Positions 38,400 through 38,682 of a DNA stretch of 61,564 nt are shown here, piece after piece. The DNA lies in contig WJJT01000036.1 of the NCBI GenBank assembly GCA_014729555.1, forward strand, positions 1 through 61,564. The letters are read 5' to 3'. Origin of the DNA: Candidatus Woesearchaeota archaeon. GTDB lineage: Archaea > Nanobdellota > Nanobdellia > Woesearchaeales > ARS49. Position 1 is the stretch's first letter, and each line of letters starts with the position of its first letter. Below the pieces are notes generated by a model. It was not told the origin of the DNA. It did not search any database and was given only the letters and a program-made list of their open reading frames with translations. Position numbers and translations under genes: made by a program.

Positions 38400-38682
38400 T
38401 CCCAAGACATTCCCAGGAACAAGGCAGGAATGGGAATGGGAATACCTTGGGAATATTCACCGACGACAAATGCGCCGGAAATGGGACTACACGGGACTAA
38501 CTGGGACTATCCCAAGAAAAAACCAAGACTATCTGGGAACAAGATTGGGACTGGTTATCGACGAGAAAGCCTTATTCTTGGGACTAACGGGGAATAAATT
38601 GGGAACAATTTGGGAATATACCCCGACGTAAAAAGCTTTATTTCTGGGACTAATTGGGAATAATTTGGGAATAACTGGGAAT
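38400..38682. repeat. Iteron-like array: 16 forward and 3 inverted copies of TGGGA(A/C)(T/C)
   Basis: Copies read directly, many spaced 10-12 bp apart. Three sub-blocks each end in CGACG (about 38461, 38558, 38624). Confidence 0.85.

What the first reader, a model, noticed from the sequence alone, without database searches (positions are those of the whole stretch)
38400..38682. Dense iteron-like array of about 19 TGGGA(A/C)(T/C) sites upstream of a coiled-coil/winged-helix gene
Within about 280 bp there are 16 same-strand copies of TGGGAAT/TGGGACT/TGGGAAC/GGGGAAT, many spaced 10-12 bp apart (one helical turn). Three inverted copies (TCCCAAG/TCCCAGG) lie among or beside them, two directly next to the TTTTTATAG box of gene 37688-38347. 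The array splits into three sub-blocks, each closed by CGACG. This is not a CRISPR array and not coding. It resembles plasmid or viral iterons, a partition centromere, or a cooperative operator for one of the three adjacent HTH proteins.
Basis: seen in the sequence. Interest (0 to 1): 0.75.

Follow-up and report, generated by a model that had tools for sequence, protein, structure and literature searches.

The report
Phased binding-site array beside winged-helix operon
A 250-bp stretch of an uncultured DPANN (Woesearchaeota-type) archaeal chromosome carries about 19 copies of TGGGA(A/C)T, all on one face of the DNA helix; the array is conserved next to genes for two uncharacterised coiled-coil winged-helix proteins, looks built like a plasmid centromere or operator, and its role has never been studied.

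Summary
There are 16 same-strand TGGGAMT-like boxes in 38431-38682, 3 inverted copies and 3 CGACG boxes (Poisson P about 4e-32).

The boxes are phase-locked at 10.9 bp. Gaps between blocks equal 2, 3, 4 or 5 helical turns. A second motif, (C)GACGA, sits at a fixed offset in the spacers and gives roughly 66-bp super-repeats.

The array lies between two outward-facing archaeal BRE/TATA promoters and abuts both. One drives gene A (37688-38347) and B (37088-37627). The other (P1, 38698-38705) points towards RsmE-RpoL.

All 9 loci found through protein A carry the array. About 22 archaeal genomes found through the DNA pattern alone carry A and B beside it, one locus per genome.

A and B are both a long helix plus a C-terminal winged helix. 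Neither matches Pfam, NCBIfam or PDB families, and A has no relatives in plasmid, phage or viral collections. A's recognition helix (SKSSFYR) is invariant, as is the TGGGA core.

Best reading: a cooperative, one-face binding array for A (with B) that controls both promoters. Its anatomy matches parC/ParR, tubC/TubR and the KfrA operator, but no motor NTPase, Rep or Orc1 gene is nearby. Whether it also acts as a chromosomal centromere or landmark is open. Binding itself is inferred, not shown.

The parts
38431..38682 (+). Core array. It holds 16 direct TGGGA(A/C)(T/C)-like boxes in four blocks: 38431-38454, 38482-38552, 38579-38617 and 38645-38682. All are in one helical phase of 10.85-10.9 bp.
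38398..38415 (-). Two inverted boxes, TGGGACT and TGGGAAT, 11 bp apart. They point towards gene A and lie just upstream of its BRE/TATA.
38510..38516 (-). Third inverted copy (TCCCAAG on the + strand) inside block 2. It is conserved in L001, L003 and L009.
38461..38466 (+). Spacer box 1, CGACGA. This is the second motif, at a fixed offset after the last TGGGA of block 1.
38559..38564 (+). Spacer box 2, CGACGA.
38624..38629 (+). Spacer box 3, CGACGT (degenerate).
38371..38379 (-). TATA box (TTTTTATAG) of the A-B operon, 32 nt before the ATG at 38347.
38690..38705 (+). P1, a canonical BRE/TATA (GCAAAAGGTTTAAATA). It starts 15 nt after the last box, points towards RsmE-RpoL, and is 100% conserved in the window's clade.
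37688..38347 (-). Gene A, 219 aa. Residues 4-112 form a coiled coil, then a disordered linker, then a C-terminal winged helix (133-211) whose recognition helix CSKSSFYR is invariant. It is the proposed array-binding protein.
37088..37627 (-). Gene B, 179 aa. A long N-terminal helix (15-78) is followed by a C-terminal winged helix (92-154). It is always co-transcribed after A and is the proposed partner protein.
36628..37119 (+). Gene C, 163 aa, an HTH protein convergent with B. It is very conserved in the window's clade (89-96% identical) but absent from L007, L008 and others, so it is not an obligate part.
38837..38852 (+). P2, a second conserved TATA-like block (CATATTATATATAGTA) with no conserved ORF behind it. 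It probably starts the long leader of the RsmE-RpoL operon.
39196..40256 (+). RsmE (39196-39930) and RpoL/Rpo11 (39984-40256), the operon on the far side of the array. A methyltransferase-RpoL pair holds this position in most relatives.

Best explanation
The region is a DNA-level array of protein-binding sites, not an RNA and not coding sequence. About 19 TGGGA(A/C)T boxes are held on one face of roughly 250 bp of duplex, with a 10.9-bp period. They form blocks of 3-5 boxes, and the blocks are separated by spacers of exactly 2-5 helical turns. The spacers carry a second box, (C)GACGA, at a fixed offset.

The proposed mechanism is as follows. The winged helix of the adjacent gene's product A reads the TGGGA core. 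A's long N-terminal coiled coil links neighbouring protomers, and probably the partner protein B, into a cooperative filament or ring along the array. B, or an alternative mode of A, may read the CGACGA box.

The array ends directly at the BRE/TATA of the A-B operon on one side and at the BRE/TATA of P1 on the other, which leads towards RsmE-RpoL. Occupancy should therefore autoregulate A-B and set the output of the divergent promoter.

Shown here: the array, its phasing, its second motif, its position against both promoters, its single-locus occurrence, and its strict linkage to A and B across a whole archaeal class. Inferred: that A and B are the binders, and that the result is promoter control. 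Whether the complex also serves as a chromosome landmark is left open.
For: (1) Enrichment and clustering. 16 boxes fall in 252 bp against 0.035 expected, and no phased pairs occur elsewhere in 61.5 kb.

(2) Helical phasing. The Rayleigh best period is 10.85-10.9 bp (or its half, 5.45) in the window and five relatives. R is 0.65-0.91, at or above the 99th percentile of random placements. In 30 loci, 166 of 253 gaps are 10-12 bp and the rest cluster at 6, 20-22, 31-35, 43-47 and 53-55 bp. This constraint makes sense for duplex DNA and not for RNA.

(3) Box conservation. The bases T, GGGA and the T at position +6 are conserved while the bases between boxes vary. That pattern indicates selection on a recognition sequence.

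(4) Second motif. Same-strand GACGA occurs at 3.41 per kb in arrays against 0.61 per kb outside. 17 of 27 copies lie exactly 14-15 nt after a TGGGA.

(5) Reciprocal linkage. All 9 distinct loci fetched through protein A (36-89% identity) carry the array upstream of A. Of 25 archaeal loci fetched through the DNA pattern alone, about 22 have A and B next to the array (A at 29-40% identity) or are cut by a contig end.

(6) Matching invariance. A's recognition helix S-K-S-S-F-Y-R is invariant in 33 diverse sequences, as is the TGGGA core.

(7) Promoter geometry. In most loci the nearest box ends 8-18 nt upstream of A's TATA. In the window's clade the far end of the array sits 15 nt from the fully conserved P1 BRE/TATA. 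P1 matches the promoter consensus of this genome.

(8) Protein architecture. A and B are each predicted as a long helix plus a winged helix, which suits oligomerisation on repeated sites.

(9) Characterised systems with the same anatomy bind cooperatively and repress the embedded promoter. These are parC/ParR (PMC2241845), tubC/TubR with blocks and two iteron types (PMC6009700), and the KfrA operator (PMC7783346).
Against: No binding experiment exists and the organism is uncultured.

Covariation between protein and site could not be tested, because both are invariant in all loci recovered.

In L063, gene A is inverted, so the array lies at A's 3' end and only faces the methyltransferase-RpoL side. 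Autoregulation of A therefore cannot be the only role.

Twenty sites are far more than a simple autoregulator needs.

The Foldseek and PDB matches of both winged helices are generic, with E >= 1e-3, so the fold gives no functional assignment.

P1 has no ORF behind it, and no expression data confirm that it fires.
Confidence: 0.6

Rival explanations
1. The array is a chromosomal centromere or landmark. The A/B-array complex would exist mainly as a unique nucleoprotein handle for chromosome segregation, anchoring or condensin-type loading, and promoter repression would be a by-product, as with ParR/parC and TubR/tubC. The motor or tether would be encoded elsewhere, or supplied by the coiled coils.
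For: There is one locus per genome in about 22 genomes, whereas several bacterial genomes in the same scan appear 2-3 times. The array has 7-25 sites in blocks, with two box types, upstream of the binder gene and covering its promoter. This is the anatomy described for tubC and parC. It is conserved across a whole class. Both partner proteins have coiled coils. A Xer-type recombinase gene lies next to B in at least 8 genomes, and a GAN/Cdc45-like gene is nearby in 5. The L063 inversion shows that the array is kept even when it is no longer in A's promoter.
Against: No ParA/SegA, ParM or TubZ-type gene lies within 4-6 kb in any of the roughly 29 loci. A and B are not members of any known centromere-binding family. 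A transcription-only role explains the position against two promoters equally well.
Confidence: 0.2
2. The array is a set of iterons at a replication origin. The boxes would be iterons for a winged-helix initiator (A). The inverted copies at A's promoter would give autorepression, and the A-rich tract beyond P1 would serve as the unwinding element, in the order seen in iteron plasmids (AT-rich, iterons, inverted repeat plus promoter, rep).
For: The window's clade shows the order: A-rich variable tract (38720-38835; 250 bp at 90% A+T in L004), then direct repeats, then 2 inverted copies, then promoter, then a winged-helix gene. The three HTH genes sit between two unusually long conserved non-coding regions (35600-36627 and 38348-39195) that carry repeated boxes in both orientations. 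From my own knowledge, an archaeal origin specified by a winged-helix protein has a precedent in Sulfolobus oriC3/WhiP.
Against: The unit is a 7-bp core every 10.9 bp, not the 17-22-bp iterons spaced two turns apart. A has one winged helix and no Rep_3, AAA+ or helicase-loader domain. No orc1/cdc6 was found among the window ORFs scanned or within 4-6 kb in 29 loci. An exceptional AT-rich tract is not a constant feature: its percentile within the locus ranges from 0.74 to 0.999, and the whole intergenic region in L008 is 251 bp. GC skew in the window simply follows the coding strand.
Confidence: 0.08
3. The array is bound by an unlinked factor. It would be an upstream activating sequence for the methyltransferase-RpoL-(r-protein) operon, read by some other regulator, and A and B would merely be neighbours.
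For: A methyltransferase-RpoL pair lies on the far side of the array in most loci, and this arrangement persists in L063 where A is inverted. The box nearest A sits upstream of the BRE, which is a typical activator position.
Against: A and B are adjacent in essentially every locus, including L064, where no RpoL is detected in the 2.2 kb sequenced on the far side of the array. The invariance of A's recognition helix parallels the invariant core. No phased box pairs occur upstream of any other gene in 61.5 kb, which would be unusual for a general regulator.
Confidence: 0.07
4. The array acts through structure rather than protein binding. The G3 tracts would form G-quadruplexes on the + strand, or the region would be transcribed into a GGGA-rich protein-sponge RNA, or it is a neutral slippage repeat.
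For: Sixteen GGG runs lie on one strand with 7-8-nt loops, which fits a relaxed G4 pattern.
Against: The flanking T, A and T bases are as conserved as the Gs. Spacers keep whole numbers of helical turns, which neither a G4 nor an RNA requires. The array lies between two outward-facing promoters, so it is probably untranscribed. There are no Rfam matches. Conservation of the boxes at 30-40% protein identity excludes neutrality.
Confidence: 0.03

Closest known systems
tubC/TubR type III partition centromere (pBtoxis, C. botulinum prophage c-st; PMC6009700)
   Same: Direct repeats lie upstream of the gene for a small winged-helix binder. They are split into blocks and include two different repeat types. 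The complex covers the operon promoter and represses it, and binding is cooperative with DNA bending into rings.
   Different: No TubZ GTPase gene is adjacent. A has a long N-terminal coiled coil and shows no TubR-specific sequence or fold match. The locus is on an archaeal chromosome, not a plasmid or prophage, and has about 20 sites at a 10.9-bp period.
parC/ParR type II partition site of plasmid R1 (PMC2241845)
   Same: 11-bp direct repeats occur in sets next to the promoter of the binder's own operon. One binder sits per helical turn, binding in phase bends the DNA, and the site both autoregulates and forms a partition complex.
   Different: ParR is a ribbon-helix-helix protein, whereas A and B are winged-helix proteins. 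There is no ParM here. The array has 16-20 boxes in four blocks rather than 2 x 5.
KfrA/KfrC of broad-host-range plasmid RA3 (PMC7783346)
   Same: An HTH protein with a long alpha-helical coiled-coil tail oligomerises and pairs with a second helical protein encoded beside it. Its operator is made of short direct and inverted repeats over its own promoter. It acts as an autoregulator with an accessory role in DNA segregation.
   Different: In KfrA the HTH is N-terminal, whereas in A and B it is C-terminal. There is no KfrA_N Pfam match. KfrA's operator has five 9-bp repeats, not about 20 boxes. KfrA is bacterial and plasmid-borne.
Iteron origins with Rep (RepA/RepE/Pi) autoregulation (own knowledge)
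   Same: Direct repeats sit next to the gene for a winged-helix binder, with inverted copies in that gene's promoter and an AT-rich tract on the other side.
   Different: The repeat length and spacing differ. No Rep_3 or double winged-helix initiator is present. The locus is not on a mobile element.
OmpR/PhoB and SARP activators on heptamer direct repeats at 11-bp spacing (own knowledge)
   Same: Winged-helix proteins bind head to tail to 7-bp direct repeats spaced one helical turn apart, just upstream of or overlapping core promoter elements.
   Different: Those sites have 2-6 repeats, and the proteins carry receiver or BTAD domains. No such domains are found here.

Membership tests
Type III partition system (tubC-TubR-TubZ) | Blocks of direct repeats lie upstream of the binder gene and cover its promoter | tested here: met
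   The window has four blocks that abut the TATA of gene A, and the same layout is seen in relatives.
Type III partition system (tubC-TubR-TubZ) | The binder belongs to the TubR winged-helix family | tested here: not met
   A and B have a winged-helix fold, but no Pfam or NCBIfam family matches. Foldseek returns only generic matches such as Hop2, BlaI, Fur, ArsR and MarR at E >= 1e-3, and no TubR is among the 50 top matches listed for either protein.
Type III partition system (tubC-TubR-TubZ) | An adjacent tubulin-like GTPase, TubZ | tested here: not met
   No tubulin/FtsZ family appears among the Pfam-annotated neighbours of 10 loci.
Type II partition system (parC-ParR-ParM) | Sets of direct repeats of about 11 bp lie next to the operon promoter | tested here: met
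   The period is 10.85-10.9 bp, and 166 of 253 gaps are 10-12 bp.
Type II partition system (parC-ParR-ParM) | A ribbon-helix-helix ParR and an adjacent actin-like ParM | tested here: not met
   A and B are predicted as a helix plus a winged helix. No actin-like family is found among the neighbours.
ParABS / SegAB (Walker-type partition) | An adjacent Walker-A ATPase (ParA/SegA) and a ParB or SegB binder | tested here: not met
   A Walker-A scan of ORFs of at least 200 aa in 29 loci found no ParA-like protein. A and B have no ParB or ribbon-helix-helix match.
KfrA family | An N-terminal KfrA_N HTH followed by a long coiled coil | tested here: not met
   No KfrA_N hit appears at E <= 0.1, and the domain order is reversed. 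The resemblance is in function and architecture only.
Iteron-type replicon (Rep_3/RepA) | A Rep initiator with two winged-helix domains encoded beside the iterons | tested here: not met
   A has a single C-terminal winged helix, and no Rep family hit was found.
Iteron-type replicon (Rep_3/RepA) | Location on a plasmid, virus or integrated element | tested here: not met
   A has no relative in PLSDB plasmids, INPHARED phages or IMG/VR. The housekeeping gene order around the locus is conserved.
Iteron-type replicon (Rep_3/RepA) | An adjacent AT-rich unwinding element | tested here: inconclusive
   An A-rich tract follows the array in the window's clade, but it is not exceptional or constant across 30 loci.
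Archaeal oriC (ORB boxes with Orc1/Cdc6) | An adjacent orc1/cdc6 gene | tested here: not met
   None was found among the window ORFs scanned or within 4-6 kb in 29 loci.
Archaeal oriC (ORB boxes with Orc1/Cdc6) | The origin coincides with a skew switch or a coverage peak | not testable with these tools
   Only 61.5 kb is held, and the skew there tracks the coding strand. Whole contigs and read coverage were not available.
Known RNA families / CRISPR | A match to a curated covariance model, or repeat-spacer organisation | tested here: not met
   Rfam gives no match at the gathering threshold or at E <= 10 over the array. The units are 7 bp every 11 bp, with no spacers of CRISPR size.

The most novel reading that the evidence does not exclude
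The array is the chromosomal centromere or unique 'landmark' of Woesearchaeales-type DPANN archaea. It would be a single-copy, helically phased scaffold on which two lineage-specific coiled-coil winged-helix proteins assemble a segrosome-like ring or filament. That complex would segregate, anchor or organise the chromosome without an adjacent ParA, ParM or TubZ motor, making it a new kind of archaeal chromosome-maintenance system that also doubles as its own operator.
Probability: 0.2. Interest if true: 0.85.

Novelty: new variant of a known kind. Interest (0 to 1): 0.62.

Why it matters
How archaea segregate and organise their chromosomes is still poorly understood outside a few crenarchaeal and haloarchaeal models, and nothing is known for DPANN archaea, which make up a large part of archaeal diversity. 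This locus offers a sharply defined and easily synthesised DNA element, about 300 bp long. It also offers two small soluble-looking proteins, conserved across a whole class, that can be tested in vitro without culturing the organism.

If the complex is only regulatory, it would be among the largest phased operator arrays described in archaea, and it would control an RNA polymerase subunit and rRNA methyltransferase operon. If it is a centromere-like landmark, it would be a new archaeal chromosome-maintenance module. Either way, the two protein families (593 clusters at 50% identity for A) would gain a first functional hypothesis.

Tried and rejected
Known RNA families: Rfam at the gathering threshold and at E <= 10 gave nothing over the array or its flanks.

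tRNA and tmRNA: none in the window.

Structured RNA downstream of P2: RNAalifold on six relatives gave only weak local hairpins (-18 kcal/mol over about 400 columns) with no convincing covariation.

Bacterial sigma-70 promoter and terminator scan: irrelevant for an archaeon and uninformative.

Paralogy of A and B: rejected by BLASTP and hhalign (probability 1.4%). B and C also show no detectable similarity.

PDB relatives by sequence profile: only coiled-coil noise for A and a weak GerE hit (E 8e-4) for B.

Fold search: only generic winged helices.

Plasmid, phage or virus origin: no relatives of A.

Orc1/Cdc6, ParA or other P-loop neighbours: none.

dif-like Xer site near the array: none was found, using a consensus recalled from memory. 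This is a weak test.

AT-rich unwinding element: not a constant feature.

GC skew as an origin marker: confounded by the coding strand.

Protein-site covariation as proof of binding: not possible, because the recognition helix and the TGGGA core are invariant in all loci recovered.

L080 (Woesearchaeota) and L082 (Bathyarchaeota) pattern hits: L080 is a three-copy repeat inside a gene and L082 an isolated triplet, so neither is the array. L129 (Nitrososphaerales) showed no dense array and no A homologue and was not examined further.
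Full report
**Source and setting.** The window is archaeal. The 3' end of an archaeal 23S rRNA lies at 1-398. Homologues of the genes around the finding are labelled Candidatus Woesearchaeota or Nanoarchaeota by their sources. The finding sits in an 848-bp non-coding region (38348-39195). On one side is a leftward gene for a 219-aa protein, called A here (37688-38347). On the other is a rightward RsmE-type 16S rRNA methyltransferase (39196-39930), followed by RNA polymerase subunit L, AMMECR1 and UppS, with the L1/L10/L12 ribosomal protein genes further downstream.

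**1. The observation.**
- An exact search for TGGGAMY finds 14 + strand matches inside 38431-38682 and two - strand matches at 38398-38415. Only 15 further matches occur on both strands of the remaining 61 kb.
- From the background rate, 0.035 copies are expected in 252 bp of one strand, so P(>=14) is about 4.5e-32. Pairs of boxes 10-12 bp apart occur nowhere else in the window.
- Tandem Repeats Finder adds a 66-bp higher-order unit over 38559-38682.
- The array has four blocks. Three are closed by CGACG(A/T), and the last by GAGACT followed by a promoter.

**2. Anatomy.** Box starts are spaced 10-11 bp within blocks and 32-34 bp between blocks, with a few 6-bp overlaps of the form TGGGAATGGGAAT.
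- A Rayleigh phase test gives a best period of 10.85-10.9 bp, or its half (5.45 bp) where 6-bp copies are common. This holds in the window and in relatives L001, L003, L004, L006 and L009. R is 0.65-0.91, at or above the 99th percentile of random placements.
- Across 30 archaeal loci, 166 of 253 gaps are 10-12 bp. The rest cluster at 6, 20-22, 31-35, 43-47 and 53-55 bp, which are half, two, three, four and five helical turns. The whole array therefore presents its boxes on one face of the duplex. That constraint is meaningful for DNA and not for RNA.
- The position-specific counts show T-GGGA-(A/C)-T conserved, while the four bases between boxes vary.
- The long spacers carry a second motif. 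Same-strand GACGA is 5.6-fold enriched in arrays (3.41 against 0.61 per kb). 17 of 27 copies lie exactly 14-15 nt after the preceding TGGGA, and 18 of 30 loci have at least one copy.
- The structural unit is thus three to five TGGGAMT boxes plus one (C)GACGA box, about six helical turns in all.

**3. Relation to promoters.** On the - strand, TTTTTATAG (38371-38379) lies 32 nt before A's ATG. This is the geometry of nearly all genes in the window, which carry a (A/G)AA-N-TTTA(A/T)ATA element 25-32 nt before the start codon. The two inverted boxes (38398-38415) sit just upstream of that BRE/TATA. In most other lineages a direct box ends 8-10 nt upstream of an AAAACGAAATATTTAAATA promoter that lies about 26 nt before A's ATG.

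At the other end, the last box is followed after 15 nt by GCAAAAGGTTTAAATA (P1, 38690-38705) on the + strand. P1 is identical in all five close relatives. The array therefore lies between two outward-facing canonical promoters, touches both, and is probably not transcribed.

P1 has no conserved ORF behind it. A variable A-rich tract follows, then a second fully conserved TATA-like block (P2, 38837-38852). After that come about 340 nt of conserved non-coding sequence up to RsmE, which has no canonical TATA of its own. I infer that P1 and P2 drive a long leader of the RsmE-RpoL operon.

**4. Comparative evidence.**

*Protein first.* Nine distinct loci encoding homologues of A were fetched, at 89, 85, 64, 63, 42, 40, 38, 38 and 36% identity. 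All carry a TGGGA array immediately upstream of A, with 7 to 20 or more boxes.

*DNA first.* I scanned one genome per GTDB species for three TGGGAMT boxes spaced 3-4 nt apart.
- Most are single bacterial matches.
- 25 are archaeal, and each isolate appears once.
- tblastn shows that in about 22 of the 25 the array lies next to a homologue of A (29-40% identity) followed by B, or the contig ends at the array.
- The three exceptions are a three-copy repeat inside a gene (L080), an isolated triplet in a Bathyarchaeota contig (L082), and a Nitrososphaerales contig (L129) that showed no dense array and no A homologue and was not examined further.
- Several of these MAGs are titled 'uncultured Methanosarcinales' but carry the Woesearchaeota-type gene order, so they are probably mislabelled.

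*Neighbouring genes.* A methyltransferase (RsmE or RsmD-like) and RpoL lie on the far side of the array in most loci. Gene C (36628-37119) is present only in part of the lineage. In at least eight other genomes a Xer-type tyrosine recombinase takes the position next to B, and a GAN/Cdc45-like DHH protein is nearby in five. In L063, gene A is inverted, so the array faces only the methyltransferase-RpoL side.

**5. The proteins.**
- *Protein A.* It has no Pfam or NCBIfam family and no PDB relative by profile. AlphaFold2 (pLDDT 75) predicts a coiled-coil region (residues 4-112), a disordered linker and a C-terminal winged helix (133-211). Foldseek finds only generic winged helices (Hop2, BlaI/MecI, Fur, ArsR, MarR, and AspA at rank 24) with E >= 2e-3. 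In 33 diverse sequences the recognition helix Q-x-x-x-S-K-S-S-F-Y-R is invariant, which parallels the invariant TGGGA. The family has 593 clusters at 50% identity in a 1.84-billion-protein library. It is absent from plasmid, phage and viral collections.
- *Protein B.* It is predicted (pLDDT 80) as one long helix (15-78) plus a winged helix (92-154). It gives weak sub-threshold similarity to sigma-70 region 4, GerE and MarR-type HTH domains. It is not detectably homologous to A.
- *Protein C.* It is the most conserved of the three in the window's clade (89-96% identical) but is dispensable in other lineages.

**6. What it most likely is.** The evidence shows a conserved, apparently single-locus, helically phased array of two kinds of short boxes. 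The array is wedged between two promoters and is genetically locked to an operon for two coiled-coil winged-helix proteins.

The most economical mechanism is as follows. A reads TGGGAMT through its winged helix and polymerises along one face of the DNA through its coiled coil, together with B. B, or a second binding mode of A, may read CGACGA. Occupancy then controls both flanking promoters. Binding and its regulatory effect are inferred, not shown. I give this reading 0.6.

**7. Rival readings.**
- *(a) Centromere-like landmark (0.2).* The complex may be primarily a chromosomal centromere or landmark. Its anatomy matches published descriptions of tubC (repeats upstream of tubR, split into blocks, two iteron types, covering the promoter; PMC6009700) and parC (two sets of five 11-bp repeats around the promoter; PMC2241845). 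The single-locus occurrence, the large number of sites, the Xer and GAN neighbours and the L063 case all point beyond plain autoregulation. However, no ParA, ParM or TubZ gene is nearby.
- *(b) Iteron-type origin (0.08).* The order 'A-rich tract, direct repeats, inverted repeats plus promoter, winged-helix gene' and the two long conserved non-coding regions are suggestive. The repeat geometry, the lack of any initiator-type domain, the absence of orc1/cdc6 nearby and the inconsistent AT-rich tract argue against it.
- *(c) Upstream element for the RpoL operon read by an unlinked factor (0.07).*
- *(d) G-quadruplex, RNA or neutral repeat (0.03).* This is contradicted by the conserved non-G positions, the whole-turn spacers, the flanking outward promoters, the lack of Rfam matches and the deep conservation.

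**8. Comparison with known systems.** Functionally the locus resembles parC/ParR, tubC/TubR and the KfrA/KfrC operator of plasmid RA3. KfrA is a coiled-coil HTH autoregulator with a helical partner and a repeat operator over its own promoter, and it has an accessory role in segregation (PMC7783346). The head-to-tail, one-turn spacing also recalls PhoB/SARP sites (my own knowledge).

The locus is not a member of any of these families. Defining protein domains (ParR ribbon-helix-helix, TubR, KfrA_N, Rep_3, Orc1) and defining partner genes (ParM, TubZ, ParA) were tested and not found.

**9. Novelty and limits.** I found no description of this element or of the two protein families in the searchable literature. 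I rate it a new variant of a known kind: a phased repeat operator or centromere-type scaffold, built from unrelated proteins, on an archaeal chromosome, with an unusually large and regular array.

Four limits apply.
- The organism is uncultured and no expression or binding data exist.
- 'One array per genome' rests on a truncated scan and on fragmentary MAGs.
- Whole contigs could not be retrieved for skew or coverage analysis.
- Protein-site covariation was unavailable because both partners are invariant.

Noticed in passing
window 39067-39085, 39169-39181, 38875-38888, 36087-36100, 36590-36600; reverse-oriented copies near 35600 and 35840; also L001, L003, L004, L006, L009, L018, L049, L126, L131: A box AAAAGTGAG(A/G)GTT recurs in both long non-coding regions that flank the three HTH genes. 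Its core CCCAAAAAGTGAGAGTT (39067-39083) is 100% identical in six genomes. In several genomes it also lies 5-27 nt before the start codon of the methyltransferase gene. It is neither a canonical TATA nor a Shine-Dalgarno sequence, and its function is unknown.
   Followed up: partly
window 39115-39125 (+), 35745-35756 and 36108-36119 (opposite orientation); L131 end: The conserved 11-mer TTAGGCAC(C/T)AG lies to the right of the gene cluster, and its reverse complement (T/C)(G/A)GTGCCTAA lies to the left. The two copies thus sit in inverted orientation around the three HTH genes.
   Followed up: partly
window 35600-36627: This 1-kb gene-free region is conserved across the clade and partly in L006. 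It has four TTGTCGG(G/A) boxes (about 36233, 36272, 36337, 36561) and TACC(A/G)GAAA boxes. It has no Rfam match and no conserved ORF. Together with 38348-39195, it gives this 3.6-kb locus an unusually high share of non-coding sequence.
   Followed up: partly
window 38690-38705 (P1) and 38837-38852 (P2): Two fully conserved canonical-looking promoters have no conserved ORF behind them. The 22-codon ORF after P2 is not conserved in L001. They probably drive a 335-470-nt leader or an unannotated RNA upstream of RsmE, which lacks its own TATA.
   Followed up: partly
L007 7304-8119, L008 7727-8554, L049, L077, L126, L032, L130 5395-6207, and the P0109 locus: A Xer-type tyrosine recombinase gene lies directly beyond gene B in at least eight genomes, in the position that gene C holds in the window. 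A GAN/Cdc45-like DHH gene lies on the RpoL side in L007, L049, L077, L081 and L107.
   Followed up: partly
L063 3670-4650: Gene A is inverted relative to the array and to B, so the array abuts A's 3' end. The A-B intergenic region contains no TGGGA box.
   Followed up: yes
L016, L018, L026, L031, L047, L063, L076, L090, L114: MAGs titled 'uncultured Methanosarcinales archaeon' carry the Woesearchaeota-type array, A, B and RpoL locus. Their titles are probably placeholder or wrong taxonomy.
   Followed up: no
L011, L013, L067 (Lentisphaeria RGIG5530); L015 (Deltaproteobacteria, 10 TGGGA in 300 bp); L083; L056, L110, L112 (Pedobacter): Some bacterial genomes also contain dense TGGGAMT repeats, in several copies per genome and with no A or B homologue nearby. 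Their nature (coding repeats or dispersed elements) was not examined.
   Followed up: no
window 6111-6248: A 21-bp tandem repeat (4.3 copies, 98% matches) lies inside the ORF 6063-6446 (- strand), whose product starts with a TFIIB-type zinc ribbon.
   Followed up: no
window 1-61564: ARAGORN finds no tRNA gene in the whole 61.5-kb window, although the 23S rRNA 3' end lies at 1-398. A Ser/Thr kinase (24709-25986) sits next to an FHA-domain protein (23657-24712).
   Followed up: no
window 28470-33837: Four consecutive - strand ORFs (589, 347, 423 and 398 aa) have no Pfam or NCBIfam match. The two ORFs nearest PAC2 correspond in position to ORFs of variable size in relatives, one of them with a weak coiled-coil (CCDC39) hit.
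   Followed up: no
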